Source: Bacilli bacterium (GTDB lineage Bacteria > Bacillota_I > Bacilli_A > RF39 > UBA660). From it: a DNA stretch of 38,836 bases. Positions 2,494-30,746 of this stretch are shown here, piece by piece. The notes beneath the pieces were generated by a model. That model was not told the DNA's origin and did no database searches. It was given only the letters and a program-made list of their open reading frames with translations. The translations under genes and the position numbers were made by a program. Every line of letters begins with the position of its first letter. Positions within the stretch are counted from its first letter, which is position 1. The stretch is from contig JBJFGY010000077.1 in NCBI GenBank assembly GCA_051893155.1, positions 1 to 38,836 on the forward strand. Reading direction: 5' to 3'.

Positions 2494-4989
2494 TTAAATT
2501 TTAAAACTATCTACAAAACTATCAAAAGAAATTTGTTCTTGTTTTTCTTCATTTTTTTCTAGTTTTATTTCATTTTCCGCTAATTTTTCTTCTTTACCTT
2601 TAATAATTTCATATTTTTCTGTTACATTTAATACCTTTAAATTAGTATAATTACTACCAAAACTATTAGTATCCATAAGTTTTATATCACTATTTTTTAT
2701 TTCAATTACATCTGAATCAGTTTTAACAACATTTATTGATTTTGAATCAGTAATAAATGCCGAAATAGTTTTATAATCTTTAGTTTTATTTTTCTTAATT
2801 ATTTGACTACCTTTTTTATTTCTAGTAAATTTATTTAATTCATTAATTTTAACTCTTTTAGCGGTATTAAAATTAGTAAATATATTTAAATATTCTTTTG
2901 TTTCATCAACTTGATTTGAAGACACTACATAATCATTTGTTAAATTAATAGCTTTTACTCCTGATGCTTTTGCACCAACAACTGGAATTTCATCTGAAGA
3001 AAACATTAAATAATAATTATTATTTGTTACTATTAAAGTATCATTCTTATCTAATTTTACACTAACTAGTTCATCATTATTTTTAAGTTTAATTGCTGTC
3101 ATTGGTTTACTACATCTTGATACTTCATAATCCGACATAATTACTTTTTTTATCATACCATGTTTTGTTGTTAAAATTAAATAATTATCTTTATCATATA
3201 TATATGAATCAATTATTTTCTCTCCTTCTTCAAGCATTACAATATTATTTATATGTTTACCTAAGTCTTTCCATTTACATTCATTAATTTGATAAACCGG
3301 TATAAATAAATAATTTCCTAGTGTTGTAAATAATAATAAATGATTTCTTGTATTAACCTCAAAAATATTTTTAACATAATCTCCAGGTTTTAAAGTTGTT
3401 TCATCAGTTGCAGCTTTATATGATTTAATTGGAACTTTTTTTACATATCCATCATTTGTAATTACAATTACAACATTTTCTGATGGTATCATTTCTTTTA
3501 AATCAAATTTAATTTCAGTTATTTCATCTTTAATAACTGTTTTTCTAGGAATGCTATATTCTTTTTTAACATTTCTAAGTTCCGATTTCATAACATTTTT
3601 TAATTTATTTTCATCATTTAATATTTCATTACAATTATTAATTAATTCTTTTAATTCTTCTACTCTTTCTTTTAAGACAACAATATCAGTATTAGTTAAT
3701 CTATAAAGTTGTAAAGTTACAATTGCTTCAGCTTGTTCAATATTAAAATCAAAAGCACTAACTAAATTTTCTTTAGCATCAGATTTATTTTTACTTTGTC
3801 TTATAACCTTAATTACATCATCTAAAATAGATATTGCTTTCATAAGACCTGATACTATATTAAATTCTTTTTTATAAGTATTAAGTTCAAATGTAGTTCT
3901 TTTAGTTATAACTTCTTTATAAAATTCAACATATGCATCAAGTATTTCAAGTATTCCTAATGTTTTAGGAGTTCTATTTACTATTGCTACCATATTATAA
4001 TTATATGATATTTGAAGATCTGTATTTTTGAATAAATAATTTAAAATAAGTTCTTTATTAGCCCCATTTTTTAAATCAATTACGATTCTTTGACCATCAC
4101 GGTCTGTTTCATCTCTTACTTCACTAATACCTTCGATTTTTTTATCAATTCTTAAACTATCAATTTTAGCAACTAGCATAGCTTTATTTACTTCAAAAGG
4201 TATTTCATCAATAATAATTTGTTCTTTACCTTTTTCTTTATTAAATCTTGTTTTAGAACGAACAATTACTTTGCCTTTTCCAGTTTTAAAAGCACTTATT
4301 ATTCCATCTTTACCTTCCACTATACCACCAGTTGGAAAATCAGGACCTTTAACAATTTCTAATATTGATTCTAGTTTGCAGTTAGGACTTTCAATTCTTT
4401 TAATTGTCGCATCAATTATTTCTCCTAGATTATGGGGAGGAATATTGGTAGCATATCCTGCTGAAATACCATTTGCTCCATTTACTAAAAGATTAGGAAA
4501 TTTTGCTGGAAGTACTGTTGGTTCTAAAAAACGATCATCAAAATTAAGTGCCCATGACACAGTTTCTTTATCTAAATCTTTTAATAATTCACTACTTATT
4601 TTAGCAAGTTTTGCTTCAGTATAACGATATGCAGCAGCTGGATCACCATCAATTGAACCATTATTTCCGTGAATATCAATTAATACATGATTTTGTTTCC
4701 ACCATTGACTCATTCTAACCATAGCATCATAAACAGATGAGTCTCCATGTGGATGGAATTTTCCTAATACATCTCCAACTGTTGCAGCACATTTTATATA
4801 ACCTTTATCCCAAGTATTACCGGCTTTATACATTGCATAAAGTATTCTTCTTTGAACAGGTTTTAAACCATCTCTTACATCAGGTATTGCTCTATCTAAA
4901 ATAATTTCTTTAGCATATTTACCAAAACGATCACCCATTATTTCTTCAAGTGCATAATCTTGTATTCTTTTTAAAATCTCATTTTCCAT
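2494..4989 (-). CDS. parC: DNA topoisomerase IV subunit A
   Basis: LEEIMGDRFGKY N-terminus typical of Firmicute ParC, DGLKPVQRR, HPHGDSSVYDAMVRMSQ and catalytic AAYRYTE. No GyrA box seen. Confidence 0.93.
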   Translation of the reverse strand: MENEILKRIQDYALEEIMGDRFGKYAKEIILDRAIPDVRDGLKPVQRRILYAMYKAGNTWDKGYIKCAATVGDVLGKFHPHGDSSVYDAMVRMSQWWKQNHVLIDIHGNNGSIDGDPAAAYRYTEAKLAKISSELLKDLDKETVSWALNFDDRFLEPTVLPAKFPNLLVNGANGISAGYATNIPPHNLGEIIDATIKRIESPNCKLESILEIVKGPDFPTGGIVEGKDGIISAFKTGKGKVIVRSKTRFNKEKGKEQIIIDEIPFEVNKAMLVAKIDSLRIDKKIEGISEVRDETDRDGQRIVIDLKNGANKELILNYLFKNTDLQISYNYNMVAIVNRTPKTLGILEILDAYVEFYKEVITKRTTFELNTYKKEFNIVSGLMKAISILDDVIKVIRQSKNKSDAKENLVSAFDFNIEQAEAIVTLQLYRLTNTDIVVLKERVEELKELINNCNEILNDENKLKNVMKSELRNVKKEYSIPRKTVIKDEITEIKFDLKEMIPSENVVIVITNDGYVKKVPIKSYKAATDETTLKPGDYVKNIFEVNTRNHLLLFTTLGNYLFIPVYQINECKWKDLGKHINNIVMLEEGEKIIDSYIYDKDNYLILTTKHGMIKKVIMSDYEVSRCSKPMTAIKLKNNDELVSVKLDKNDTLIVTNNNYYLMFSSDEIPVVGAKASGVKAINLTNDYVVSSNQVDETKEYLNIFTNFNTAKRVKINELNKFTRNKKGSQIIKKNKTKDYKTISAFITDSKSINVVKTDSDVIEIKNSDIKLMDTNSFGSNYTNLKVLNVTEKYEIIKGKEEKLAENEIKLEKNEEKQEQISFDSFVDSFKI

Positions 4990-4992
4990 AAA

Positions 4993-6897
4993 TTATCCCC
5001 TATAATCATCTTCCATAGTAAATACTACATTTTCATTAATCCATTCTTTTCTAGGTTCAACTTTATCCCCCATTAAAACACTTACTCTTTTTTCCGCTAA
5101 AGCAGCATCATTAATATTTACTCTTATAAGCATTCTTGTATCAGGATTCATTGTAGTTTCCCAAAGTTGTTCTGGATTCATTTCACCAAGTCCTTTATAT
5201 CTTTGAATGGAATATTTTCCACTATTATTTCTTTTTATTTCATTAAGTTCATCATCAGTGTAAGCATAAAATCTTTTTTTACCATAATCAAGTTTATATA
5301 ATGGAGGCATGGCGATATAAAGATGACCCGTTTCAATAAGCGGTCTCATATAACGATAGAAAAATGTTAAAAGAAGTATTTGAATATGTGCTCCATCAAC
5401 ATCGGCATCAGTCATGATTATAACTTTATCATAATTTGATTCACTTACATCAAAACTTTGACCGACACCAGCTCCTATTGTATAAATTAATGTATTAATC
5501 TCTTCATTTTTAAATAGTTCTTCACTTGCTGCTTTATCGGCATTAATAACTTTTCCTCTTAATGGTAAAATAGCTTGAAATTTACGATCTCTTCCACCTT
5601 TAGCACTACCACCTGCTGAATTACCCTCAACTAAGAAAAGTTCATTAATCTTAGAATTTTTACTTTGTGCGGGAGCAAGTTTACCTGATAAGTTCTTTTC
5701 TATTTTACTTTTATTTTTACCATTTCTTGCTTCTTCTCTTGCTTTTCGAGCAGCTTCTCTTGCTGTTTTACTTTTCATTGCTTTATCAACTATATTTAAT
5801 GCAACTTCTTTATTTTCTTCTAAATAAAACTTAAGAGAGTCATATGTAATACTTTCTGTAATACTTCTTGCTTCAGGTGTACCAAGTTTACCTTTAGTTT
5901 GTCCTTCAAACTGAAGATGTTCTTCAGGTATTTTAAGACTAATTACCGCAGTAAGTCCTTCTCTTACATCAGCTCCATCTAAGGAATAATCTTTACCTTT
6001 AAAAAGATTATTATTTTTAGCATAATCATTAAATGCTTTAGTAATTCCAGTTTTAAAACCAACTTCATGAGAACCACCATCAATTGTTTTTACGTTATTT
6101 ACAAATGACAAAATATTTTCTTGATAAGTATCTGTATATTGAAGTGCAACACTAACTTCAATATCATTTTTAGTTCCACTATAACTTATAACTTTATGAA
6201 GTGGAGTTTTATCTTCATTAATATATTCAACAAAACTAGTTAAACCATTATCATAATGATATTTAACTTCTTTTTTATCTGCTTCATCAATTACTTCAAT
6301 AGTAAGACCAGGAAGTAAAAATGCACTTTCTTGCATTCTTTCACAAATTGTTGTATAGGAAAAATTTAAATTTTTAAATATTTCATCATCTGGTTTAAAT
6401 TTAACTATTGTTCCTGTTTTTTTACTTTCGCCAATAGTTCTTAAAGGATTTTTTACTTTACCACCATTTTCAAAATCTATTTCACTTATTTTGCCATCAC
6501 GATAAATTACAACTGTCATTTCTTTGCTTAATGCATTAACAACAGAAGCTCCTACACCATGAAGACCACCAGAAACTTTATAACCATCTTCAGTAAATTT
6601 ACCACCAGCATGAAGTATTGTATAAATTACTTCAGGTGTGCTTTTTCCTGAAGCATGCATTCCTATAGGTACACCTCGCCCATTATCTGCAACTGTAATT
6701 GAATTATCTTTATTAATAATAATTTTGATATAATTACCAAAACCATTTATAACTTCATCCATTGAATTATCAACAATTTCCCATACTAAATGATGAAGAC
6801 CTCTTTTATCAGTTGAACCGATATACATTCCCGGTCTTTTTCTTACTGCTTCTAAGCCTTCAAGTATTTTAATTGATGATTCATCATATTTTGCCAT
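4993..6897 (-). CDS. parE: DNA topoisomerase IV subunit B
   Basis: LEAVRKRPGMYIG, GGLHGVG, LVEGNSAGGSAK, MTDADVDG, QRYKGLGEM and the ParE-type ending LMGDKVEPRKEWI. TTGCCA-17-TATAAT promoter (6942-6914). Confidence 0.93.
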   Translation of the reverse strand: MAKYDESSIKILEGLEAVRKRPGMYIGSTDKRGLHHLVWEIVDNSMDEVINGFGNYIKIIINKDNSITVADNGRGVPIGMHASGKSTPEVIYTILHAGGKFTEDGYKVSGGLHGVGASVVNALSKEMTVVIYRDGKISEIDFENGGKVKNPLRTIGESKKTGTIVKFKPDDEIFKNLNFSYTTICERMQESAFLLPGLTIEVIDEADKKEVKYHYDNGLTSFVEYINEDKTPLHKVISYSGTKNDIEVSVALQYTDTYQENILSFVNNVKTIDGGSHEVGFKTGITKAFNDYAKNNNLFKGKDYSLDGADVREGLTAVISLKIPEEHLQFEGQTKGKLGTPEARSITESITYDSLKFYLEENKEVALNIVDKAMKSKTAREAARKAREEARNGKNKSKIEKNLSGKLAPAQSKNSKINELFLVEGNSAGGSAKGGRDRKFQAILPLRGKVINADKAASEELFKNEEINTLIYTIGAGVGQSFDVSESNYDKVIIMTDADVDGAHIQILLLTFFYRYMRPLIETGHLYIAMPPLYKLDYGKKRFYAYTDDELNEIKRNNSGKYSIQRYKGLGEMNPEQLWETTMNPDTRMLIRVNINDAALAEKRVSVLMGDKVEPRKEWINENVVFTMEDDYRG

Positions 6898-6996
6898 ACT
6901 ACCACCTTAAATTATTATAATGAAAAAAAGTATTTTTGGCAATGACACTTTACAAAAAATATCTTTTTTAAATGTAAAATAAAAAAGATGAATTTT

Positions 6997-8229
6997 TTAA
7001 ATAAATTTAAAATCATCTTTTTCTTCATCTTTTAAAATTGGTTCTTCTTTTAATTTAGGAAGTTCAATGCTCATAGTTTCATCATAATCTATATTTTTTT
7101 CTGCAACTTTATTTTCTACAACATTTTTATTTGGTACATATACTGAACTATAAATATTACTTACTACAGTAGTATTACTTTCCTTTTTTTCTTCTTTAAC
7201 TTTAGGTTCTTCTAAAATAGAATTTGGAATATTTATTTTATTATTATTTAAATTATTATTCTCAATATTAGTATTAATTTGACTAAATGTTTTTTGCTGT
7301 TTTTCAAGTTCAGTTAATTCTTTATCAATTGAAGAAGCAATATTTTGAAAACGATTTATAGCATCTTGACTAGAATTTCCTGCTTTACTACTTGCAGCTT
7401 TATATGAATCATCATCAATATTATTTTTTTGAATTATTTTCTGAGGATTAATACTATTAATTTCAACAACTTCTTTTTTTATTTCATTATTAGAATTTAT
7501 TGGCGTTTTTTCTACTACAGGCATTACGATATCTTTTGGCTTAACTGGCTTTATTTCACTTATATTAGATGTTAAATTATTACTCATAGTATTATTATTA
7601 GCATTTTGACTTATATTTACTTGTTTATTTTGAACTTGTGATGTTGGCATAATAATTTCATTTGGATTTTGAATAGTAGGTTTAACTTCATTAATACTTG
7701 TTACACTAGCTTTATTAATATTATTTTGAACAGGCGTACTAACTTTTGGTTGAGTTTCATTTTGTGCTATATTATTTGTAACTGGTTTTACCTCATTTAC
7801 AATAGGTGTTTGATTATTTTTCATTTCTTTTTCAGAATTTTGAATTGGATTTGTAGGCAAAACAGTATTATTTACACTATGCATTACATTATCTGGATTT
7901 AATTTTACTTCACTTGCTGCATTCATTACTGGAGATTGAGTAATAACACCAGCTTTTGAATTATTATTTGTTTCAACTACTGTATTTTGTTCTAAAGTAT
8001 TACTATTATCATTTTTAATAACTTCTGTTTGGTTATTTTCAATAGTATTTAATTTATTACCTTTTTGTAAATCTTCTTTATTAAGTCTTTGAGTCTCTTC
8101 AATCTTTTTTTGATCTTTCTTTCCTAAAAAGAATACAATAAAAAATGCAATAAGTAATACTATAATTATAATACCTAAATAAATAGGAAAATACTTATTT
8201 GCATATAAATTTACAATAAATTCTTTCAT
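6997..8229 (-). CDS. Single-pass membrane protein with a long low-complexity (N/Q/T/P/V/K) tail
   Basis: Likely start is ATG 8229 after a GAGGTG RBS. One hydrophobic helix followed by KK, then ~350 aa that look disordered. Confidence 0.75.
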   Translation of the reverse strand: MKEFIVNLYANKYFPIYLGIIIIVLLIAFFIVFFLGKKDQKKIEETQRLNKEDLQKGNKLNTIENNQTEVIKNDNSNTLEQNTVVETNNNSKAGVITQSPVMNAASEVKLNPDNVMHSVNNTVLPTNPIQNSEKEMKNNQTPIVNEVKPVTNNIAQNETQPKVSTPVQNNINKASVTSINEVKPTIQNPNEIIMPTSQVQNKQVNISQNANNNTMSNNLTSNISEIKPVKPKDIVMPVVEKTPINSNNEIKKEVVEINSINPQKIIQKNNIDDDSYKAASSKAGNSSQDAINRFQNIASSIDKELTELEKQQKTFSQINTNIENNNLNNNKINIPNSILEEPKVKEEKKESNTTVVSNIYSSVYVPNKNVVENKVAEKNIDYDETMSIELPKLKEEPILKDEEKDDFKFI

Positions 8230-9168: not shown

Positions 9169-9531
9169 TTAATCTAAACTATCTTTATTATCATTTTCAT
9201 GTATTTTTTTTATAATATTCTCTATTTTATTACCATATTCAATACTTTCATCATATGTAAACTCTAAAAAAGGGATATTTCTTGCCTCAATAAGATTAGC
9301 AAGTTTACCTCTTATAAATGAACTAGCTTCATTTACCTCTTTTTCGATTTCTTTTTTACTTAATGGTGAAAGTGAAGTAAAATAAACTTTACAATAACTA
9401 AAATCTTTAGAAAGTTTACAACTTGTTATAGTAATAGTTTTAATTAATTCATCATGACATTCCCTTTGAATAATAAGTGGAATATATTTTTCAATATCGC
9501 TTTCTATTCTTTTTACATTTAAACTAGGCAC
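9169..9531 (-). CDS. rbfA: Ribosome-binding factor A
   Basis: ITIT...LSKD...CKVYFT and P.L.F.YDESIEYGNKIE motifs. Lies between infB and truB. Confidence 0.93.
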   Translation of the reverse strand: MPSLNVKRIESDIEKYIPLIIQRECHDELIKTITITSCKLSKDFSYCKVYFTSLSPLSKKEIEKEVNEASSFIRGKLANLIEARNIPFLEFTYDESIEYGNKIENIIKKIHENDNKDSLD

Positions 9532-11629
9532 GTTTAATTTCCTCCATTACATATACTTCAAAGATATCATTTGGTTTAAAGTCATCATATTTTTCAAGAG
9601 TAATACCACATTCAAAGCCTTTTTTAACTTCTTTTACTTGATCTTTACCTCTTTGAATTGAAGAAATTTTAGTATCCGCTAAAACAGTTGAATCACGAAT
9701 AACACGCACATTACTATTACTTTTTACTAATCCTTCAGTAACATATACTCCCGCAATATTACCAACTTTAGAAAATTTAAATATTTGTCTTACTTCACAA
9801 GCACCAATTTTCTTTTCTTCAAATTTTGGATCAAGCATTCCTGTTAAAGCAGCTTCAATGTCTTCGACTAATTTATAGATAATTGTATAAAGTCTTATAT
9901 CAATTCCATATTCTTTCGCCATATCTTTTGCATCAGATGATGGTACTACATTAAATCCAATAACAATTGCTTTAGATGCACTAGCCAAAACTATATCGCT
10001 TTCAGAAATAGGTCCAATACCACTTCTTATGACTTTAACTTTAACATCTTCGACTTTGATTTTTTCTAAAGAACTTTTTACAGCTTCTTCGCTACCTCTA
10101 ACATCTGCTTTTAAAACTACTGCTATTTCTTTTTGACCTTTATTTATGCTATCAAATAATTCATCAAGTGAAAGTGATTTTTTTTCACCTTTTTTAGCAT
10201 CTTCAGCATTTTTTCTTTTAATAGAAATATTTTTTGCTTCTTCAATTGTTTCAAATGCCATGAATTTATCACCAGCTCGAGGAGTATCATTAAGTCCTGT
10301 TATTTCCACTGGAGTAGATGGACCAGCTTCAACAATATTTTCTCCCCTATCGTTTTTCATTGTTCTTACCTTTCCATAAGTTGTACCAACAACAACAGGG
10401 TCTCCTAAACGAAGGGTTCCATTAAGAATTAAAAATGATGCAATTCCACCAATATTCTTATCTAGTTTTTCTTCAATAACAGCACCCAAGGCATATCTTG
10501 ATGGATTTGCTTTAAGTTCTTTTACTTCCGCAATAGCAAGTATTGTATCTAGAAGTTTATCAACTCCTTCGCCAGTTTTCGCAGAAATATTTATAAATGG
10601 ATAATCTCCACCCCAACTTTCTGGAGTAATACCTTCCTCAGCCATTTGTGTATAAACTCTTTCAATATTTGAATCTGGTTTATCTATTTTATTAACCGCA
10701 ACAACGATTGGAACTCCAGCACTTTTAGCATGATCAATTGCTTCTTTTGTTTGAGGCATAACACCATCATCAGCTGCAACAATAATTATTACAATATCAG
10801 TTACACTTGCTCCTCTTGCACGCATTTGAGTAAAAGCAGCATGACCTGGAGTATCTATAAATGTAATTTTATTATTATCTTTAGTAATTTGATAAGCACC
10901 TATTGCTTGCGTAATTCCTCCAGCTTCACTTGAAGCAATATTTGAAGATCTTATATAATCAAGAAGTGTTGTTTTACCATGGTCAACATGTCCCATTATT
11001 GTAACAATGGCAGGTCTTGGGGCTAAATCTTCTTCATTATCAATTACTTCATAATTATCAAAATCTGAGATATCTTGGCTTTCTTTTCTTTTTAATGTTT
11101 TATTATAATCAAGAGCAACAATTTCAGCATTTTCAAAATCAATTTGTGCATTAATAGATAGCATTAATCCTAAACTAATTAATTTTTTAATTATATCATT
11201 TGAAGATACTCCTAAAACATTGGCAAAATCAGCAACTGTCATATTATTTTCATATAAAACAACATTATCTTCTTTACTATTACTCATTAATTTTGTTTTA
11301 TTTTTATACATTTGTTTTTTTAAATTTTTAAATTCACTATTATTACTATCTTTCTTCTTTAATTTTTGTTTAGAAGTAGCAACAAGAGAATCAGTTTTAT
11401 CGATATTTTCACTTTGCAAAACTTTTTCAATAACATCATCAATTTGATCTTCTTCTTCATAAGTAGTTTCTTTATTTGTACTAATCAAATTAATAGTATT
11501 ATCAAGCATAATAATATCATCATCAGACAAAATAGCATTTGCATCTGCTTTTATACCAAGTTCACTACATTTTCTAAGTACTTCCGCTACTGATAAATTT
11601 ACATCCTTTGCATAATCTTTAATATTCAT
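9524..11629 (-). CDS. infB: Translation initiation factor IF-2
   Basis: GHVDHGKTTLLD, DTPGHAAF, NKID and KEVKKGFECG motifs. Confidence 0.98.
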   Translation of the reverse strand: MNIKDYAKDVNLSVAEVLRKCSELGIKADANAILSDDDIIMLDNTINLISTNKETTYEEEDQIDDVIEKVLQSENIDKTDSLVATSKQKLKKKDSNNSEFKNLKKQMYKNKTKLMSNSKEDNVVLYENNMTVADFANVLGVSSNDIIKKLISLGLMLSINAQIDFENAEIVALDYNKTLKRKESQDISDFDNYEVIDNEEDLAPRPAIVTIMGHVDHGKTTLLDYIRSSNIASSEAGGITQAIGAYQITKDNNKITFIDTPGHAAFTQMRARGASVTDIVIIIVAADDGVMPQTKEAIDHAKSAGVPIVVAVNKIDKPDSNIERVYTQMAEEGITPESWGGDYPFINISAKTGEGVDKLLDTILAIAEVKELKANPSRYALGAVIEEKLDKNIGGIASFLILNGTLRLGDPVVVGTTYGKVRTMKNDRGENIVEAGPSTPVEITGLNDTPRAGDKFMAFETIEEAKNISIKRKNAEDAKKGEKKSLSLDELFDSINKGQKEIAVVLKADVRGSEEAVKSSLEKIKVEDVKVKVIRSGIGPISESDIVLASASKAIVIGFNVVPSSDAKDMAKEYGIDIRLYTIIYKLVEDIEAALTGMLDPKFEEKKIGACEVRQIFKFSKVGNIAGVYVTEGLVKSNSNVRVIRDSTVLADTKISSIQRGKDQVKEVKKGFECGITLEKYDDFKPNDIFEVYVMEEIKRA

Positions 11630-11648
11630 AGATATCCCATCCTTTCTT

Positions 11649-12173
11649 TTATCTAGATTTTGTTTGTTCTTCTATATTTATATATCCCATTTCAATTAAT
11701 ATTTCTTCTAAAGTTCTTCCTTCATACTTAACAACTTCAATATTTGTGTTATTTACTATTTCTTTGGATAAAGTTGCATCATAATTTGCATCATATATAA
11801 TTTTCTTAATACCACTATTAATTATAGAATTCATGCAATCTTTACAAGGAAAAGTATTTACATAAATAGTTGCTCCAATAGTTGATATACCATGTCTTGC
11901 GGCAAAAGCAATAGCATTTTGCTCAGCATGAGAAGCAGGACATAATTCCAAATATTTTCCTGATGCATAATCTGGCATTTTTCTTCTTCGACATCCTCCT
12001 AAATCTTCACAATGCGTAACTCCTCTAGCAGGGCCATTAAAGCCAAATGATATAGGATTATCATCTTTAACAATAATAGCGCCAACTTTTCGAGATAAAC
12101 ATGTACTTCGAAGTGATGCTAAATGAGCAATTGCCATATAATATTCTTCTTTATTAGGCCTATTATTATTCAT
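11649..12173 (-). CDS. dCMP deaminase family (ComEB-like) zinc deaminase
   Basis: RSTC..RKVGA, GFNG, HAEQNAI and PCKDC zinc motifs. Confidence 0.9.
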   Translation of the reverse strand: MNNNRPNKEEYYMAIAHLASLRSTCLSRKVGAIIVKDDNPISFGFNGPARGVTHCEDLGGCRRRKMPDYASGKYLELCPASHAEQNAIAFAARHGISTIGATIYVNTFPCKDCMNSIINSGIKKIIYDANYDATLSKEIVNNTNIEVVKYEGRTLEEILIEMGYINIEEQTKSR

Positions 12174-12426
12174 TATTTACCTTTCTAATTAAAGTTTCAT
12201 AAATTTCATCAGGAACGCAAACTTCTAAAACTCTATCTAATATTTTAGTCTTTTTTGCTTTATTTATCACATCAATATCTTTTTTTAAATAAGCCCCTTT
12301 TCCATTTGCTTTACCACTTTCATCATATATAACTTCTTTTTCAGGGGTTCTAACAACCCTTAATAAATCACGTTTTTCACATTTTTCTTTCGTTACAACG
12401 CATGTTCTTAAAGGTATTTTTTTCAT
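12166..12426 (-). CDS. ylxR: YlxR/RnpM family RNA-binding protein
   Basis: KIPLRTCVV...KRDLLRVVR...GKANGKGAY. Directly downstream of nusA. Confidence 0.93.
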   Translation of the reverse strand: MKKIPLRTCVVTKEKCEKRDLLRVVRTPEKEVIYDESGKANGKGAYLKKDIDVINKAKKTKILDRVLEVCVPDEIYETLIRKVNNE

Positions 12427-13538
12427 TATTTATTTCCTTCCTCATTAACCTGGCTTAATGTTTTAATTTCAAGATAATAATGGGTAAGACGTGATGCAAG
12501 TTTAATATTACTTCCCTTTTTACCAATAGCTAAAGATAAATTATCATCACTTACAATTACTAAAGCTTTCTTTTCTTTTTCATCAATTATATTAACTATT
12601 GCATCTTTCGCAGGAACCATAGCATTTTTAATAAATTCCGCTGGATCATCATTATATAAAACTAAATCAATTCTTTCATCACCAAGTTCTTTTAAAACAC
12701 CAGCAATTCTACAACCTTTTTCGCCAATACATGAACCAATTGCATCTATTTTAGGATTATTTGAATAAACTGCAACTTTACATCTAATACCAGGTTCACG
12801 AACAACAGCATATATTTCAATTGTTCCATTAATAATTTCCGGAATTTCTTGTTCAAATAATCTTTTAACAAAACCAAAATGTTTTCTAGATAGCATAATA
12901 ACTGGGCCTTTAGCTCCTAAAGTTACTTTAGTTAAATATACTTTAATATTAGAACCCATCGTAATTTTTTCACCTGGAATAATTTCACTTTTAGGAAGCA
13001 TTCCTCTAGTTCTACCTAAATCAATATAATAGTTTTTTTGGTCTTCAAGAGCAACCATTCCAACCATTACTTCGCCTTCTTTATCATTAAATTCATTAAT
13101 AATACTTTCTTTTTCAGCTTCTCTTATTTTTTGCGTTAATACTTGTTTAGCAGTACCCGCAGCTACTCTTCCAAAATCTTTAGGTGTTACTTCTACTTCA
13201 ATTGTTTCTCCAACTTTTGCATTTGGATCAATTTTAACGGCATCTTCTAAAAGAATTTGAGCATCAATATTAATTTCAGGTGGAACAGTTACAGTGTTTC
13301 CTTCTTCATCAACAGTTTCACTACCTTCATCAATTTCAGAAACAACTACTAAATAAGAATAAACTTTAATATCTCCAGTCTCACGATTAATTCTAACAAT
13401 TACATTAGTTTTAGAATCAAAATTTTTCTTATATGCAGTAGTAAGTGCTAAAGTAAGTCCATCATAAATTACATCTTCACTTATATTTTTTTCTTTTGTA
13501 ACAAGCTTAACCGCTTTAATTAATTCATTACTATTCAT
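12426..13538 (-). CDS. nusA: Transcription termination/antitermination factor NusA
   Basis: FGRVAAGTAKQV, S1 domain, REPG.R.KVAV and LSLAIGKKG.N.KLA KH motifs. Confidence 0.97.
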   Translation of the reverse strand: MNSNELIKAVKLVTKEKNISEDVIYDGLTLALTTAYKKNFDSKTNVIVRINRETGDIKVYSYLVVVSEIDEGSETVDEEGNTVTVPPEINIDAQILLEDAVKIDPNAKVGETIEVEVTPKDFGRVAAGTAKQVLTQKIREAEKESIINEFNDKEGEVMVGMVALEDQKNYYIDLGRTRGMLPKSEIIPGEKITMGSNIKVYLTKVTLGAKGPVIMLSRKHFGFVKRLFEQEIPEIINGTIEIYAVVREPGIRCKVAVYSNNPKIDAIGSCIGEKGCRIAGVLKELGDERIDLVLYNDDPAEFIKNAMVPAKDAIVNIIDEKEKKALVIVSDDNLSLAIGKKGSNIKLASRLTHYYLEIKTLSQVNEEGNK

Positions 13539-13541
13539 TTT

Positions 13542-13796
13542 CTATCCTCTTTCCTTACTTGATATATCAAGAATATAACTATCTTCAATATCACAATATT
13601 TATCCACAATTGGATTAATTATTTTTGTAGCATCAACTATTTCATCTAAATCAATACCACCAACTTTATCTAAAGTTACCTCCAAAAAATTATATTTACC
13701 TTTCTTTTTATATGATATATTATCTACAAATATATCCATTTTTTTTATTGCAATATTAATTTTTTCAGTTAATTTTTCAAATTTCAAATATATCAC
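13542..13796 (-). CDS. rimP: Ribosome maturation factor RimP, N-terminal domain only
   Basis: L.V.LDK.GGIDLD and Y.LDISS motifs. First gene of the nusA operon. Only 84 aa. Confidence 0.8.
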   Translation of the reverse strand: MIYLKFEKLTEKINIAIKKMDIFVDNISYKKKGKYNFLEVTLDKVGGIDLDEIVDATKIINPIVDKYCDIEDSYILDISSKERG

Positions 13797-13849: not shown

Positions 13850-13888
13850 ATTTTAACACTAAAAAAAAGATATGTCTATCTTTTTTTT
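13850..13888 (-). promoter_or_regulatory. Sigma-A promoter of the rimP-nusA-infB operon, embedded in an upstream terminator
   Basis: TAGACA(13878-13873)-17-TAAAAT(13855-13850) with an extended TG. Overlaps the hairpin A8GATA-tgtc-TATCT8 (13861-13888). Confidence 0.7.
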
Positions 13889-13904
13889 ACGTTATTTTTT
13901 TCTT

Positions 13905-14085
13905 CGGCGCCTCGCGAAAGGGTTTTCGCTGGGGTTATTGACAACTATAACCTACTATGGTTAAATAATGTTACATTTATTGGAATTCTATATTTTATTT
14001 ATATAGAGTTTTATAGTAACTTTTTGTTGAAAGACACAGTTAAGTTAACGAGGCCGGTTTACTCTAGTGTAAAGTGTTGGCACCT
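13905..14085 (+). ncRNA. Candidate structured non-coding element of unknown family
   Basis: Four hairpins plus a long-range GCCTCG/CGAGGC pairing. The wobble pairs read as G-U only on the plus strand. Confidence 0.4.
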
Positions 14086-14104
14086 ACTTATTATTATTAC
14101 TGCG

Positions 14105-16330
14105 TTATTCTATCAAAAATGGCGAAATATATGACCCATCTCCTGAGGTATACCCGGTGCCAGGTTTTAAAGAAACGGACAGCCGGGCCCCGTAAGATTT
14201 GCCCACGCCGCCGTTACTCAAGATACTATAACTATTGACAAAACGCCCGTAAGCACTGCTGTAGTATAAGCGGCAAGGGGAACCCAGCCAAAAATTCTGG
14301 CCTGTATTTAAATAATAGGTACTATCACTTGCATCTTTATAAGCAAGCCATACTTCTGGGGCGGTAAGTAATCCCACTGGATATTTAAGCGGTGCTTTTG
14401 CATTTCCTACTCTAAATTGATCTAACTCATTTGAACATACTAAACTATAATTTGTACTATAATTTTTAAATTGTAAATACTCTGTTGTACTTCCACCATT
14501 TGGATTCCAACCATTTAAATTTAATATACTTCGGTCATTACAAAATGTTGTGTCCTCTAGATAAGAGGTATATGATGTCATATTATTTTCATACCAAGTT
14601 TCTATATATATTTTCATTGTTGAATCAGTTTTATTTACATCATCTGCATATAACATTTCATTTAAAGCATCACTTACTGATTTACCATTTGTTAGCGTTA
14701 TATAATCTGCAGTTGAAGAACTAGTATGATGTACATAATATAAAGAAGTGCAAGTAGTACCTGTTGTGAAACACGTATAATGATTATTACTTATTGTATT
14801 ATAGCCACTTGACCAAGAAGAAACTGTCATTGTATCAGTAAGTGTATAAGAGCCATCAGCATATGTAAATGAATTACCAAATACAATATTAGATAATGCT
14901 GAACTAGATTTAGATGAAGAAGTATATACTGTATTATACATATAACCAACATATGCAGGTGAGTCCCAACTACTATTAAATGCACTTGTTCCTATTTGAG
15001 AATCTTCTCCAGTATTATTGCAAGTTAAATACGAATTACCTGAAGGTTTACCTACATAAAAAACTACATTATCACTACCACTTGCTCCTGATGAATCTTT
15101 TGTATATTCTACTTTTATTACATTTGAGGTAGTAAGGCCTTCAAGATTAATTGTTCCACTTATAGAACCACTATAAGTACCAAGCACTGTATCATCTTTA
15201 TAAAATATTGCTTCATCATAGCCTCCCTCTGAAGAAACTGTACATGATAATACATAATCACCTGCTTCAGCAACCGTAAATGTTATTGTTCCCGTAGCAC
15301 TATTTGTTTGATTTGTACTTGTCCATGTTTTATTTGTACTATCAAATGTATATGGGTAGTTTGCATCATTAGATACATTTAAATATTGTGATTCTTCAAT
15401 TGGAGTTGGCTTCATTATTGTTTTTGGAGTACCATTATAAATTAGTTTAACTCCCCCAGTATCGGTGGTTCTAACCATTTTCCAACATAGGTCCGCAAAA
15501 TAAACATTATTATCTTCGACTGCACCATTATAATAATATACTGGATTAGCATATGAATCTGATCCATCACCATCATATAATTTTACAAATGTATTTCCTT
15601 CATTATATTTATCTTGAATCATTGCATATAAAGTGCCACCATTATTAACACTTTGTGAAGTTTCACAATGAGTATTATCTACATAAAATCTACCTTTAAA
15701 AGTTTTATTAGCAAGAGAAGTTTGATCTAAATCTAAGTTATAAAATTTATTAGTAAAAGTCCAAGTTTGTACTGTTGGATTATTTGAACTTGAATTTATA
15801 ATTTCTACTCCACTTACAATAGTTCTTTTATATGGATTTGATCCCCAATACTCATCATAAGCAAAATTTGTTTCTTCTTTAAACATATTAGAAAAAGTTG
15901 TTGGTCCACTTGCTTGTAAAGTAAATTCTTTTGTAGCTCCTTCACTTACTGGAGTTGGTTCTTTTCCATAAATACTTGAATCATTATCATATTCAAATAT
16001 TATATCATAAGTACATTTTACTGCATAACTAGTCGTACCTGCATCTAAAGAAACAGTTAAACTAGACTCATTAGTCATAACATAATTACCAGCATTATCT
16101 TCAGTCATATTTTCAGGATCAATATCAATAGAAAATGATGTATTCGTCGCATTTAAATAAGCATTTGAAAGATTACCCGCAGATAAATTAACATTTAGCA
16201 TATTACCAAGATTAACAAAAAAATTACCAAAATAGGCAAAAGTTATAGCCATTATAATAACTAAAAAAATTGCTACTATTATAATAATTGAAATACTTTT
16301 TTTATCTAATTTATTTTTTTTATTTTCCAT
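14105..16330 (-). CDS. Large exported/surface protein with a C-terminal C-type-lectin-like (DUF6273-like) domain; putative DGR target
   Basis: N-terminal hydrophobic stretch ending TFAYF (SipW-type signal-like) and a S/T/N/Y-rich beta-type body. C-terminal YPVGLLT...FWLGSP...V.......GAR.SVSLK motif. Own promoter TTGGAA-17-TATTAT (16386-16358). Confidence 0.75.
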   Translation of the reverse strand: MENKKNKLDKKSISIIIIVAIFLVIIMAITFAYFGNFFVNLGNMLNVNLSAGNLSNAYLNATNTSFSIDIDPENMTEDNAGNYVMTNESSLTVSLDAGTTSYAVKCTYDIIFEYDNDSSIYGKEPTPVSEGATKEFTLQASGPTTFSNMFKEETNFAYDEYWGSNPYKRTIVSGVEIINSSSNNPTVQTWTFTNKFYNLDLDQTSLANKTFKGRFYVDNTHCETSQSVNNGGTLYAMIQDKYNEGNTFVKLYDGDGSDSYANPVYYYNGAVEDNNVYFADLCWKMVRTTDTGGVKLIYNGTPKTIMKPTPIEESQYLNVSNDANYPYTFDSTNKTWTSTNQTNSATGTITFTVAEAGDYVLSCTVSSEGGYDEAIFYKDDTVLGTYSGSISGTINLEGLTTSNVIKVEYTKDSSGASGSDNVVFYVGKPSGNSYLTCNNTGEDSQIGTSAFNSSWDSPAYVGYMYNTVYTSSSKSSSALSNIVFGNSFTYADGSYTLTDTMTVSSWSSGYNTISNNHYTCFTTGTTCTSLYYVHHTSSSTADYITLTNGKSVSDALNEMLYADDVNKTDSTMKIYIETWYENNMTSYTSYLEDTTFCNDRSILNLNGWNPNGGSTTEYLQFKNYSTNYSLVCSNELDQFRVGNAKAPLKYPVGLLTAPEVWLAYKDASDSTYYLNTGQNFWLGSPCRLYYSSAYGRFVNSYSILSNGGVGKSYGARLSVSLKPGTGYTSGDGSYISPFLIE
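14171..14290 (-). other. Putative DGR variable region (VR)
   Basis: About 50% GC by hand count. Scaffold codons lack adenine. 19 of 21 putative variable codons end in C/T, and only 2 of 40 codons end in A. Confidence 0.65.
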
Positions 16331-16388: not shown

Positions 16389-16907
16389 TTATTTGTTAAT
16401 TTTTAATACACCATTTTCAATTTGTTTTGTCTCACTAATTGAAATAAATGCATCTTTATCAATAGATTTTACAATTTTTACTAGTTTTTTTAAATATCTT
16501 TTATCTACTTCAATAATAAGCATTTGTTTTTTTATATTATCAAAATCATTTTTTAAATCAATAATAGATATACCAAAACCATTATTTCTTAAAGTATTAA
16601 TTAAAATATCATTTTTCTTTTTAGTAATAATAGTTACATTTTCAATACCTTTAATAAAATTATTGGATATAAAAGAACCAATTAATATACCTGTAGCATA
16701 ACCAAGGGAATAACTTATTGGTATCCATAATGAATCTAAATCAACATTTAAAGCTTGCCTTGCCACTAAAAACCAAACTAATACTTCAAAAAAAGATAAT
16801 ATTGAAGAAAAAATAGTTTTTCCTTTTAATGTATAAAATGTTCTAATCGTACTTAATGTTACATCAAGTATTCTTGCAAAATATATTTGTAAACATAATG
16901 CTATCAT
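16389..16907 (-). CDS. UPF0316/DUF2179 (YebE-like) membrane protein
   Basis: ARILDVTLSTIRT, FFEV.VW, YSLGYATG..IG and ID..AFI motifs. Confidence 0.85.
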   Translation of the reverse strand: MIALCLQIYFARILDVTLSTIRTFYTLKGKTIFSSILSFFEVLVWFLVARQALNVDLDSLWIPISYSLGYATGILIGSFISNNFIKGIENVTIITKKKNDILINTLRNNGFGISIIDLKNDFDNIKKQMLIIEVDKRYLKKLVKIVKSIDKDAFISISETKQIENGVLKINK

Positions 16908-17680
16908 TTAATAAGTTTCCTTACTTTAATTAGAGCATTTTTTTCAATTCGAGATACTTGCGCTTGTGATATATTTAATTCACTAGCAATTTCTGTTTGA
17001 GTTTTTCCCACAACATATCTTTCCATTAAAATAGATTTTTCTCTTTCTTTTATTTTTTTTAAAGCTTTATATAAAGAAATCATCATATCTTTATCATAAC
17101 TTTTTTCTTTGTTATCTGCTATTTGATCTTCTAAATAAATTGTATCTCCTCCATCAGAATATATTGGAGCAAATATACTCATAGGTTCTTTTAAGGCATT
17201 TAAAGCAAAACCAATATCTATTTCACTTATATTTAAAGCCTTTGATATTTCACTATTTAATGGTTCTTTTCCATATTTATTTATATATTCTTCTTTAAAC
17301 CTAAGTATTTTATAAGCATCATCTTTTATACTTCTTGCTATTCTCATTTGGGTATTATCTCTTAAATATTTTTTTATTTCTCCCACTATTAAAGGTACAG
17401 CATAAGTAGACAATTTTAAATTATAAGATAAATCAAAATTATCAATGGCTTTTATTAAACCAATAACTCCTACTTGAAATAAATCATCTTGATTAATACC
17501 TTTTTTATTAAAACCTTTTAATACAGATAAAACTAATTTTAAATTACCATTTACTAAATCATCTTTTGCTTTTAAATTACCACTTTGATATAGTTTAAAT
17601 AATTTAATATTTTCTTCATGAGTTAAACATTTTAAAGTACTAGTATTTATTCCCGTTATATCAACTTTATAATTACTCAT
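16904..17680 (-). CDS. sigG: Forespore sporulation sigma factor SigG
   Basis: SigG-type N-terminus KVDITGINTSTL, LVNGNLKLVLSV, DDLFQVG.IGL.KAIDNFD and TQ.EIA..L.ISQAQVSR.EK. Likely start is ATG 17680 after GAAAGGA. Confidence 0.9.
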   Translation of the reverse strand: MSNYKVDITGINTSTLKCLTHEENIKLFKLYQSGNLKAKDDLVNGNLKLVLSVLKGFNKKGINQDDLFQVGVIGLIKAIDNFDLSYNLKLSTYAVPLIVGEIKKYLRDNTQMRIARSIKDDAYKILRFKEEYINKYGKEPLNSEISKALNISEIDIGFALNALKEPMSIFAPIYSDGGDTIYLEDQIADNKEKSYDKDMMISLYKALKKIKEREKSILMERYVVGKTQTEIASELNISQAQVSRIEKNALIKVRKLIK

Positions 17681-17698
17681 ATCATTTCCTTTCAAAAT

Positions 17699-30019: not shown

Positions 30020-30078
30020 AGTATAAGATAAGTTTACTTAAAATTCAATAAAAAAAGTTATAAGGCTAGCTTATAACT
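30020..30078 (-). promoter_or_regulatory. sigE terminator followed by the sigma-A promoter of the Tad operon
   Basis: Hairpin AGTTATAAG/CTTATAACT (30056-30078) with a T-run, then TTGAAT(30048-30043)-17-TATACT(30025-30020). Confidence 0.7.
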
Positions 30079-30746
30079 GATGAAATATTATTTATTACTT
30101 TTTTTTCTATTCTTGAGATATAACTTTGCGATATACCTAGCATATTTGCAACTTCTTTTTGCGTATATTCTCTTGTATTATTAAGACCATATCTTAATAC
30201 CATAATTTCTTTATCTCTTTTAGATAAATTATTAATTTCTTTATTTAAAAATTCTTTATTAATTTTATGTTCAAATTCTTTATCTACAATATCTTCGCCA
30301 GTACCTAAAACATCTGAAAGTTTTAACTCATTCCCTTCAGCATCATAATTTAAAGTATCCTCTAAAGAAACTTCTTGTTTACTTTTTTTATTTTTTCTAA
30401 TATACATTAATATCTCATTAGATATACATCTTGAAGCATATGTAGCAAGTTTAATATTTTTATCAATCTTATAAGTATTAATACCCTTTATAAGACCAAT
30501 TGAACCAATTGAAACTAAATCTTCTATATCATAACCAGTACTTTCATATTTTTTAGCTAAAAAAACAACTAATCTTAAATTATGTTCAATTAATTTATCT
30601 TTAGCTTTTTCATCACCTTGTTTGGCTTTTATTAAATATGATAGTTCATCTTCTTTTGAAAGAGGTGGAGGAAGTTTATCAGTTGCTCCCACAAAAAAAA
30701 CTTCATCATATTTAATTCTTAATTTTTGTAATAATTTTTTAAACAT
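30066..30746 (-). CDS. sigE: Mother-cell sporulation sigma factor pro-SigE
   Basis: Basic pro-peptide, LPPPLS, LIEHNLRLVV, EDLVSIG.IGLIK, KLATYASRCI.NEILM and TQKEVA..LGISQSYISR motifs. Follows spoIIGA. Confidence 0.92.
   Translation of the reverse strand: MFKKLLQKLRIKYDEVFFVGATDKLPPPLSKEDELSYLIKAKQGDEKAKDKLIEHNLRLVVFLAKKYESTGYDIEDLVSIGSIGLIKGINTYKIDKNIKLATYASRCISNEILMYIRKNKKSKQEVSLEDTLNYDAEGNELKLSDVLGTGEDIVDKEFEHKINKEFLNKEINNLSKRDKEIMVLRYGLNNTREYTQKEVANMLGISQSYISRIEKKVINNISSVIS

What the first reader, a model, noticed from the sequence alone, without database searches (positions are those of the whole stretch)
14171..14290. DGR variable-region signature in a large surface protein, with no local template or RT (remote target)
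Seen: the minus-strand codons are tgg ctg ggt tcc cct tgc cgc tta tac tac agc agt gct tac ggg cgt ttt gtc aat agt tat agt atc ttg agt aac ggc ggc gtg ggc aaa tct tac ggg gcc cgg ctg tcc gtt tct. GC is about 50% by hand count (14161-14300) in an otherwise very AT-rich window. Scaffold residues (WLGSP, A, GR, V, L, V, S, GAR.SVS) use adenine-free codons. Of the 21 intervening codons, 19 end in C/T and many are NNC, which is rare elsewhere here. Known: DGR mutagenic retrohoming randomises adenines of AAC/AAT template codons, which leaves exactly this pattern in C-terminal C-type-lectin folds ending G.R plus a GC-rich IMH. No template repeat, avd or RT is visible in these 38.8 kb. Inference: a chromosomal, non-prophage adhesin-like protein, placed among core genes, is diversified in trans by a DGR elsewhere in the genome, possibly as one of many dispersed targets.
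Basis: partly seen in the sequence, partly recalled or inferred. Interest (0 to 1): 0.78.

Follow-up and report, generated by a model that had tools for sequence, protein, structure and literature searches.

The report
Orphan DGR variable region, engine missing
The GC-rich patch is a genuine hypermutation cassette (a DGR variable region) at the tip of a surface protein, one of five such genes in this tiny gut bacterium, but the enzyme and template that write it were found only in a sister species, so here it looks frozen.

Summary
Window 14180-14291 (-) is the most GC-rich 140-nt stretch of the window and ends a 741-aa surface-protein gene (14105-16330, -) lying between sigG and rimP-nusA-infB.

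It is a DGR variable region. A same-genus genome, G020, carries a template repeat, an Avd-like gene and a DGR-class RT. Against that template the window differs at 20 of 35 adenines but only 10 of 77 other bases (p=3.9e-6).

The genome holds five such paralogous targets. No template or RT is in the 1.15-Mb assembly, which is 93.6% complete. The two loci where G020 has a cassette or a cassette remnant are empty here.

The window copy has 5 private non-adenine changes. A 134-nt insertion breaks its conserved 3' hairpin.

Verdict: a real DGR target, probably an orphan that is no longer rewritten (about 0.6). A cassette in unassembled DNA remains possible (about 0.3). It is a new member of a known kind; remote DGR targets are already described.

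The parts
14105..16330 (-). Target gene: 741-aa protein with an N-terminal hydrophobic helix and a C-terminal ~300-aa domain that carries the VR. It is one of five paralogues in the genome.
   Evidence: ORF. No Pfam, NCBIfam or PHROG hit. Paralogues. The last 300 aa have 2734 relatives at E<=1e-3 in the representative library. The G020 orthologue (contig C33) is 88.2% identical over 1900 nt.
14180..14291 (-). Variable region (VR): 112 nt homologous to the G020 template repeat core.
   Evidence: Alignment to the G020 TR gives 20/35 mismatches at TR adenines and 10/77 at other bases, Fisher p=3.9e-6. All 35 TR adenines sit at codon positions 1 or 2. GC is 0.54.
14171..14191 (-). GC-rich 3' end of the VR (GGGGCCCGGCTG plus 9 nt). 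It sits where an IMH would be: TR and VR stop matching just after it.
   Evidence: In the G020 cis pair the TR and VR are identical through GGGGCCCGGCTG and then diverge. The same 12-mer is intact in the window. Function as an IMH is inferred, not tested.
14064..14093 (-). First half of a conserved post-stop 3' element (core motif gtaggtgccaacactttacactag), shared with the DGR-linked copies.
   Evidence: Window 14063-14093 is 96.9% identical to G020 cassette positions 6-37. The exact 24-mer occurs only at C77:14064 and C122:4205 in the genome. Related forms lie 3' of all five G020 copies.
13930..14063 (-). 134-nt AT-rich insertion or replacement that splits the 3' element and removes most of the left arm of its hairpin.
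   Evidence: Absent from G020 and from G000 C122. Logan contigs in 3 of 4 runs laid (X2, X3, X4) skip 13929->14063/14064. A 121-nt stretch is 100% identical 3' of the C8 paralogue. Not found in 21 other genus genomes.
13881..13929 (-). Second half of the 3' element: remnant of the hairpin (only a 6-bp stem is left of the 10-bp cctcgcgaaa/accc/tttcgcgagg hairpin) and its conserved tail.
   Evidence: 92% identical to G020 cassette positions 46-96. Folding gives a 10-bp stem in the G020 cis copy and in G000 C122, and 6 bp in the window.
9524..13796 (-). Context, not part of the element: rimP (only 84 aa), nusA, rnpM/ylxR, a ComEB-like deaminase and infB, immediately downstream.
   Evidence: NCBIfam hits.

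Best explanation
Window 14180-14291 (-) is a true variable region of a diversity-generating retroelement (DGR).

How such a region is written: an error-prone RT copies a template-repeat RNA and misreads its adenines, and the resulting cDNA replaces the VR. Here that randomised about 17 AAY-type codons on the ligand-facing end of a C-type-lectin-like domain of a membrane-anchored surface protein.

The gene is one of five paralogous targets, each beside different core genes. The matching engine (TR, Avd-like gene, RT with IGxxxSQ and YMDD motifs and a MutS_I-like tail) exists in a sister species next to the orthologue of another paralogue.

In this genome the engine is absent from the assembly, and from the two loci where the sister species has it or its remnant. 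The window VR is therefore most likely an orphan. It was written after the two species split, has since been frozen, and is drifting: it has private non-adenine substitutions and a broken 3' hairpin.

Shown: the VR identity, the five targets, the cassette in G020, and its absence from this assembly. Inferred: loss rather than non-assembly, a role for the 3' hairpin, and adhesin or ligand binding as the protein's job.
For: 1. A-specific pattern.
- Window VR against the G020 TR: 20/35 mismatches at adenines, 10/77 elsewhere (p=3.9e-6).
- G020 cis VR: 17/35 and 1/77.
- All 35 TR adenines are at codon positions 1-2.

2. Canonical cassette in G020 (L038).
- Order: target 4813-6999, TR about 7163-7283, 118-aa ORF, 495-aa RT.
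- The 118-aa ORF matches the PHROG 'Avd protein of DGR' (E 0.0025).
- The RT matches RVT_1 (2.8e-13) and MutS_I (1e-4) and phrog_1423 (3.9e-65).
- Its best solved relative is 8ub7_A, a 328-aa reverse transcriptase (1.2e-19), with IGAMSSQ aligned to IGSLTSQ.

3. Five targets in G000, four of them with clear one-to-one G020 orthologues.

4. Rewriting after the species split. The orthologue pair C77/G020_C33 differs at 20/35 A columns, 13/77 non-A columns and 22/182 flank columns.

5. No engine in G000.
- PF00078: 0 hits at E<=1.
- RT protein: 0 hits at E<=1e-10.
- tblastn with RT and Avd: best E 0.46.
- No TR by nhmmer --max.
- C122:4203-4315 is 95.7% identical to cassette positions 10-124, then runs into xerC with no TR, avd or RT.
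- The C19 locus lacks the RT remnant that its G020 orthologue locus (C37) keeps.

6. Drift.
- 5 of the window's 10 non-A differences are private (positions 25, 63, 64, 65, 94).
- 4 others (positions 7, 34, 52, 76) are shared with at least two other VRs, and position 10 with one, which points to an older TR version.
- The 3' hairpin is cut from 10 bp to 6 bp by a 134-nt insertion.

7. Same pattern in relatives. G005 and G006 (each about 91% complete) have related GC-rich modules but no RT.
Against: - The assembly is a 127-contig draft, 93.55% complete. A 2.3-kb cassette with a repeat shared by five loci could stay unassembled or unbinned. Absence is therefore 'not found', not proven.
- Population-level variability could not be tested. 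The only runs found held at most 0.14 of the sampled words and are kept as contigs of relatives.
- The window VR (10/77 non-A) is no more decayed than G020's remote VR C39 (11/77), in a genome that has a working-looking cassette. Decay alone does not show loss of function.
- G020's own remote VRs carry older-TR states. So 'remote equals frozen' may hold even where the RT is present, or a second TR may exist.
- The hairpin is non-canonical: about 115 nt from the VR with an ACCC loop, against 4-34 bp and a GRNA loop in the MyDGR rule. Its disruption may be irrelevant.
Confidence: 0.6

Rival explanations
1. Active remote target. The window VR is still rewritten in trans by a DGR cassette of this organism that lies in the unassembled or unbinned ~6% of the genome, or is present in only part of the population.
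For: - The assembly is incomplete: 127 contigs, 93.55% complete.
- 12 of 21 other genus genomes have an RT homologue of the G020 DGR RT at E<=1e-10, so such elements are common in the lineage.
- The GC-rich VR end GGGGCCCGGCTG is intact in the window.
- The window VR's non-A divergence (10/77) is in the range of G020's remote VRs (5-11/77 for three of four).
- In contigs of related strains, depth collapses over the VR bin (3.4-11.5) against the flanking bins (24-53). That fits hypervariability among relatives.
Against: - Not even a fragment of RT, Avd or TR is on any of the 127 contigs.
- The contig is continuous across the syntenic cassette site, and that site is empty.
- There are five private non-adenine changes, and the 3' element is disrupted.
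- G005 and G006 show the same RT-less state.
Confidence: 0.3
2. Cis, not trans, history. Each paralogue was duplicated together with its own TR-avd-RT cassette and diversified in cis. The cassettes were later deleted one by one, so the window gene was never a 'remote' target. This rival concerns the history only and is compatible with the orphan reading.
For: - G020_C37 keeps a VR, the hairpin and a C-terminal RT remnant (RT residues 436-490 at 93%; residues 413-491; locus map). So a second cassette once existed.
- The window's post-stop sequence (taacgcagtaata...) matches the flanks of the two cassette-linked G020 copies, C31a and C37.
- Its G020 orthologue C33 keeps the leader (taacgctaagataaataagaggga) that runs towards the TR in the cis locus.
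Against: - No RT or TR remnant lies downstream of the window gene or of its G020 orthologue.
- Remote targets served by one cassette are the documented norm for multi-target DGRs (passages).
- Four non-adenine states (TR positions 34, 76, 94, 111) recur across G000 VRs and G020 remote VRs. That fits one common template.
Confidence: 0.25
3. Not a DGR product. The patch is a hypervariable loop shaped by ordinary point mutation with diversifying selection, or by gene conversion among paralogues.
For: - The paralogues share 83-87% nucleotide identity over their C-terminal halves, so recombination between them is possible.
- Two of the five G000 copies (C64, C19) show weak or no adenine bias (p=0.13 and 0.006).
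Against: - An AAC-rich non-coding template with DGR RT and Avd-like genes exists in the sister genome and accounts for the variable positions base by base.
- Variation is confined to codon positions 1-2 of template-AAY codons.
- A tandem paralogue of the same fold has no GC or NNC signature.
Confidence: 0.02

Closest known systems
Treponema denticola DGR (TvpA and seven further targets scattered over the chromosome)
   Same: One RT/TR cassette beside one target, with paralogous targets dispersed elsewhere (passage in PMC6602519). The VR lies at the C-terminus of a surface protein. The window's domain model aligns to TvpA 2y3c at Z 4.4, rmsd 4.7, 105 residues.
   Different: In this genome no cassette was found at all. 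The target domain gives no FGE-sulfatase or other Pfam hit. The accessory gene in the sister species is Avd-like, whereas the T. denticola accessory gene contains an HRDC domain.
Remote variable proteins of cyanobacterial DGRs
   Same: Paralogous CLec-type targets at non-DGR loci, recognised by TR homology at the 3' end of the gene. Conserved cis features such as cruciforms are proposed to activate remote targets (passages in PMC7517822).
   Different: Those remote targets sit in genomes that hold the RT. Here the five targets sit in an assembly without RT or TR. The organism is a ~1.15-Mb, 24% GC genome with sporulation genes, and most runs holding related sequence are labelled pig gut or feces.
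Bordetella phage BPP-1 DGR (Mtd / TR / Avd / bRT)
   Same: Adenine-specific TR-to-VR differences, AAY codons, a GC-rich VR 3' end followed by TR/VR divergence, and Avd plus RT. The G020 RT's best solved relative is the 328-aa RT of 8ub7, which I recall to be bRT. That name comes from memory; the entry's molecule name is only 'Reverse transcriptase'.
   Different: Chromosomal rather than phage. Multiple targets. The RT has a C-terminal MutS_I-like extension, reported for three DGR RTs in PMC5758913. The hairpin is about 115 nt after the VR with an ACCC loop, not 4-34 bp with GRNA.
DUF6273 (PF19789) domain proteins of Bacillota
   Same: The motif pattern YWLxSP ... GVRPxISL at the end of the domain. 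7 of 24 members of alignment A2 hit DUF6273 (best E 1.7e-4). The nearest Atlas cluster carries it in 13% of members.
   Different: The window protein itself gives no Pfam hit at E<=1 or E<=0.1.

Membership tests
DGR variable region / target gene | A non-coding template repeat (TR) in the same genome that matches the VR except at TR adenines | tested here: not met
   No TR-like copy in G000 (nhmmer --max; blastn with the G020 cassette). The feature is met only against the TR of sister genome G020: 20/35 mismatches at adenines against 10/77 elsewhere.
DGR variable region / target gene | A DGR-class reverse transcriptase in the same genome | tested here: not met
   G000: PF00078 gives 0 hits at E<=1, the RT protein gives 0 at E<=1e-10, and tblastn gives best E 0.46. 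The assembly is 93.55% complete, so this is 'not found'. G020: a 495-aa RT with IGAMSSQ and YMDD, best PDB relative 8ub7_A at 1.2e-19.
DGR variable region / target gene | VR at the 3' end of an ORF, with template adenines at codon positions 1-2 (AAY codons) | tested here: met
   The VR ends 24 codons before the stop. TR adenines: 19 at codon position 1, 16 at position 2 and 0 at position 3.
DGR variable region / target gene | At least 80% of TR/VR mismatches at adenines (criterion quoted in PMC7517822) | tested here: not met
   Window VR against the G020 TR: 20 of 30 mismatches (67%) are at adenines. G020 cis VR: 17 of 18 (94%). The TR is from another species, and 5 of the 10 non-A differences are shared with other VRs, so the shortfall is partly a template difference.
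DGR variable region / target gene | GC-rich IMH at the VR 3' end, with TR/VR divergence just beyond it | tested here: met
   GGGGCCCGGCTG is shared by the G020 TR, its cis VR and the window VR, and the sequences diverge after it. Function is not tested.
DGR variable region / target gene | Hairpin/cruciform with a 7-10 bp GC-rich stem and a 4-nt GRNA loop, 4-34 bp after the VR (MyDGR rule) | tested here: not met
   The only conserved hairpin (10-bp stem, ACCC loop) lies about 115 nt after the VR, beyond the stop codon. In the window it is reduced to 6 bp by a 134-nt insertion.
DGR variable region / target gene | Within-population hypervariability at the adenine-templated positions | not testable with these tools
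C-type lectin (CLec) fold DGR variable proteins | The VR-bearing domain adopts a C-type-lectin-like fold with the VR on one face | tested here: inconclusive
   AF2 model of the last 300 aa: pLDDT 85.9, pTM 0.82. Foldseek gives nothing at E<=1e-3. In the VIA wide search the top hit is the T. ramosa IgA peptidase 9qa6_A (Z 9.4, rmsd 3.6, 162 aligned). Most of the other 50 rows are C-type lectin-like domains at Z 3.6-5.1, including Lcl C-terminal domain 8q4e (Z 5.1) and TvpA 2y3c (Z 4.4). These Z values are in the range the tool calls common.
DUF6273 (PF19789) | Significant match to the Pfam model | tested here: inconclusive
   The window protein has no hit at E<=1. 7 of 24 A2 members hit, best E 1.7e-4.

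The most novel reading that the evidence does not exclude
The five chromosomal VRs of an RT-less genome are still rewritten, by a DGR engine supplied from outside the chromosome: a phage, a plasmid or a co-resident strain's element carrying the matching TR. That would be hypermutation of core-genome surface genes by a non-resident retroelement. A milder version, which the data favour, is that the lineage repeatedly discards the DGR engine after it has randomised a gene family, keeping a frozen, pre-diversified set of five lectin-like surface proteins.
Probability: 0.07. Interest if true: 0.8.

Novelty: new member of a known kind. Interest (0 to 1): 0.45.

Why it matters
- A DGR target can be recognised from raw sequence alone, and its template predicted almost base for base.
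- A ~1.15-Mb gut bacterium devotes five genes to DGR-type variable surface proteins.
- The RT-less state, an empty syntenic site and a decayed second cassette in the sister species together give a concrete case of DGR loss with retention of the diversified targets.
- RT-anchored surveys state that they would not detect DGRs whose VR is not next to the RT (Roux et al. 2021, passage). An RT-less genome, having no RT to anchor on, would presumably be missed as well.
- The conserved post-stop hairpin element shared by cis and remote targets is a testable candidate for the signal that lets one cassette serve several genes.

Tried and rejected
Searches for the engine outside G000 and G020:
- The search for related loci with the G020 RT in metagenome contigs and viral contigs found no relatives.
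- An exact 23-nt TR word in metagenome contigs and viral contigs gave 0 matches.
- The genome-contig scan returned only G020 itself and its RT remnant.
- So no TR of the older version implied was recovered.

Population variability:
- The look-up of sequencing runs gave only small shares, at most 0.14.
- Read laying on four runs used contigs of relatives at 85% likeness or more.
- The depth dip over the VR and the contigs that skip the 134-nt insertion say nothing about variation within this strain.

Negative family and RNA searches:
- Pfam, NCBIfam and PHROGs give nothing for the 741-aa protein.
- A PDB profile search with alignment A2 gave 0 hits at E<=1.
- The window has no Rfam family and no tRNA, so the 3' element is not a described RNA.
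- Foldseek against PDB gave no match at E<=1e-3.

Rejected readings:
- The second GC-rich spot (32860-32999) as a second VR. It is ftsZ.
- The 370-aa ORF downstream of the target as an RT. It is NusA.

Literature:
- A full-text search for 'diversity-generating retroelement' with 'orphan' and 'variable region' found 5 papers, of which 4 were listed. None is about RT-less VR families, judged by title and abstract start only.
- Supplements were not opened.
Full report
**1. Observation.**
- GC is 0.50 for 14161-14300 and 0.533 for 14171-14290. The window mean is 0.247.
- 14153-14292 is the most GC-rich 140-nt stretch of the whole 38,836-base window (0.529; sd of such windows 0.065). The runner-up lies in ftsZ.
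- 30 of the 40 codons end in C/T and 16 end in C. Only 21 of the first 631 codons of the same gene end in C.
- The patch sits 24 codons before the stop of a 741-aa ORF (14105-16330, -) that has an N-terminal hydrophobic helix and no Pfam, NCBIfam or PHROG match.
- Its neighbours are core genes: sigG and a PRK04164-type gene upstream; rimP, nusA, rnpM, a ComEB-like deaminase and infB downstream.

**2. It is one of five.**
- The window is contig C77 of a 1,152,387-base, 127-contig assembly that is 93.55% complete and 24% GC.
- The 300-nt C-terminal module recurs on C122, C8, C64 and C19 at 74-80% identity.
- Each copy ends a 600-740-aa paralogue with the same kind of N-terminus, and each sits in a different core-gene neighbourhood.
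- In the alignment the flanks are almost invariant. The central ~85 nt vary mainly at codon positions 1-2, with C/T kept at position 3.
- A tandem paralogue without a VR (C122:305-2011) has GC 0.27-0.32 in the equivalent segment. It serves as an internal control.

**3. The template and the engine exist in a sister species.**
- A DNA search of 40 relatives found the module in genus members only.
- In G020 it found, besides five gene copies, a 121-nt match covering only the VR part. It lies 160 nt after one copy, at G020:C31:40162-40282.
- That stretch is non-coding and AAC-rich. It is followed by a 118-aa ORF that matches the PHROG 'Avd protein of DGR' (E 0.0025).
- Next comes a 495-aa RT. It matches RVT_1 (2.8e-13), a C-terminal MutS_I-like stretch (1e-4) and phrog_1423 (3.9e-65). 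Its best solved relative is 8ub7_A (1.2e-19), with IGAMSSQ aligned to IGSLTSQ, followed by YMDD.
- Against the 112-nt TR core (35 adenines), the G020 cis VR differs at 17/35 adenines and 1/77 other bases.
- The window VR differs at 20/35 adenines and 10/77 other bases (p=3.9e-6).
- All 35 adenines are at codon positions 1 or 2.
The DGR origin of the patch is therefore established as far as sequence can establish it.

**4. The engine was not found in this genome.**
- RVT_1 gives no hit at E<=1 (the control search rang in 4 of 14 control genomes).
- The G020 RT protein gives no hit at E<=1e-10. tblastn with RT and Avd gives best E 0.46.
- An nhmmer --max profile of the module finds only the five gene copies plus the pre-VR part of the VR-less paralogue.
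- G000 C122 is syntenic with the G020 cassette locus. The gene order there is: VR-less paralogue, target, [TR-avd-RT in G020 only], xerC-type recombinase, [an extra 433-aa ORF in G000 only], then a conserved 424-aa ORF that I read as trigger factor (not checked with a tool).
- C122:4203-4315 is 95.7% identical to the first 115 nt after the G020 target. The sequence then runs through about 50 nt into xerC, without TR, avd or RT.
- G020 also has a decayed second cassette. Downstream of its C37 copy lies an RT C-terminal remnant (residues 436-490 at 93%). The orthologous G000 locus (C19) has neither remnant nor hairpin.
- 12 of 21 other genus genomes have an RT homologue.
- G005 and G006 (each about 91% complete) have GC-rich VR-like modules of a related template lineage but no RT. 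RT-less genomes with such modules therefore recur in the genus.

**5. History.**
- Four G000 paralogues have clear one-to-one G020 orthologues: C77-C33, C122-C31a, C8-C39 and C19-C37. C64 matches best to C37 over its upstream part.
- The window gene and its orthologue differ at 20/35 template-adenine columns, 13/77 other VR columns and 22/182 flank columns (p=3.4e-5). This is as different as unrelated paralogue pairs (19-27/35).
- At least one of the two was therefore rewritten after the species split.
- At four TR positions (34, 76, 94, 111) most G000 VRs and most G020 remote VRs share a base that differs from the present G020 TR. The G020 cis VR follows the present TR.
- So the remote copies were written by an older version of the template (or by another template) and have not been rewritten since.
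- Of the window's ten non-adenine differences, five are private (positions 25, 63, 64, 65, 94). That is 6.5%, about half the orthologue flank divergence of 12%. I read this, as an inference, as a long period without rewriting.

**6. A conserved 3' element, broken in the window.**
- The G020 cis copy, the four other G020 copies and G000 C122 share a roughly 75-110-nt element after the stop codon. It has the form gtaggtgcc...cactag..cctcgcgaaa-accc-tttcgcgagg-cgccgaag....
- The element contains a perfect 10-bp hairpin and no T-run.
- In the window a 134-nt AT-rich stretch (13930-14063) splits the element and leaves a 6-bp stem.
- Contigs of related strains in 3 of the 4 runs laid lack the insertion.
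- The same 121 nt, 100% identical, lie 3' of the C8 copy, and nowhere else in 22 genus genomes.
- C64 and C19, the most decayed VRs (21/77 and 22/77), lack the element. However, G020_C37 (28/77) has it, so the correlation is imperfect.
- The hairpin does not fit the published rule of 4-34 bp from the VR with a GRNA loop. Its role in target recognition is a hypothesis.

**7. The protein.**
- The last 300 aa belong to a large family: 2734 representative clusters at E<=1e-3 and 695 at E<=1e-30. Many proteins carry several copies of the domain.
- The family is distantly tied to DUF6273. 7 of 24 alignment members hit it, but the window protein does not.
- The AF2 model has pLDDT 85.9 and pTM 0.82. 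Foldseek finds no match at E<=1e-3.
- In the wide VIA search it matches the N-terminal part of the T. ramosa IgA peptidase best (Z 9.4, rmsd 3.6, 162 aligned). After that come mostly C-type-lectin-like domains at Z 3.6-5.1, including the Legionella Lcl C-terminal domain and the DGR target TvpA (Z 4.4).
- This fits a CLec-type variable protein, but at Z values that the tool itself calls common.

**8. Comparison with what is known, and verdict.**
- Remote or multiple DGR targets are well documented: eight targets in T. denticola (passages in PMC6602519) and 76 remote targets in cyanobacteria (passages in PMC7517822).
- MutS_I-like RT tails have been reported for three DGR RTs (passage in PMC5758913).
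- RT-anchored metagenome surveys state that they would miss DGRs acting on remote targets, where the VR is not next to the RT (passage in PMC8144416).
- The finding is therefore a new member of a known kind.
- The claim of an engine elsewhere in this genome is not supported by the assembly.
- Most likely (about 0.6) the window VR is an orphan left by loss of the cassette. An unassembled or population-variable cassette (about 0.3) needs reads or a closed genome to exclude.

Noticed in passing
window 13930-14063 (-); G000 C8:5184-5304 (L044): A 121-134-nt AT-rich element, 100% identical in two places. Both copies lie immediately 3' of DGR-target paralogues whose genes are only ~85% identical. 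It was found in no other of 22 genus genomes. It could be a small mobile element or a recent conversion tract; no terminal repeats or duplication were looked for.
   Followed up: partly
L038 7777-9264 (G020 RT): The DGR RT carries a ~130-aa C-terminal extension with a MutS domain I match (E 1e-4, 22.9 bits against a cut-off of 20.6). Wu et al. report this for only three DGR RTs (passage). A 63%-identical 494-aa RT is in G009.
   Followed up: partly
L040 4295-4671 (G020:C37): A decayed second DGR cassette lies between mnmA-side and HTH genes. It consists of the target with the most eroded VR (28/77 non-A differences), an intact hairpin, and then only the last ~55-80 codons of an RT.
   Followed up: yes
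window 13542-13796 (-): The rimP ORF is only 84 aa. It matches positions ~7-82 of 151-179-position RimP models, well below their cut-offs. It looks like a half-length RimP in this reduced genome.
   Followed up: no
L022, L024, L030, L032, L036 and others (G005, G006, G012, G016, G017): Other genus members carry paralogue families with GC-rich (0.57-0.65) NNC-type VR-like modules on a different scaffold (TGGCTTGCTTCCCC...GGCGTGCGTCC). This implies a second template lineage. G005 and G006 have no RT hit.
   Followed up: partly
window 16904-17695 (-), 30066-31530 (-); G000 C64:558-2036: Sporulation genes are present in a ~1.15-Mb, 24% GC genome. SigG is confirmed. The SigE/SpoIIGA-like pair and a SpoIVA-like ORF are named by my own reading, not by a family search.
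   Followed up: no
model of window 14108-15007 (-): The best structural match of the VR-bearing domain is the N-terminal region (residues 69-303) of the Thomasclavelia ramosa IgA peptidase, 9qa6_A (Z 9.4, 162 aligned, 20% identity). This suggests that the peptidase carries the same kind of binding module.
   Followed up: no
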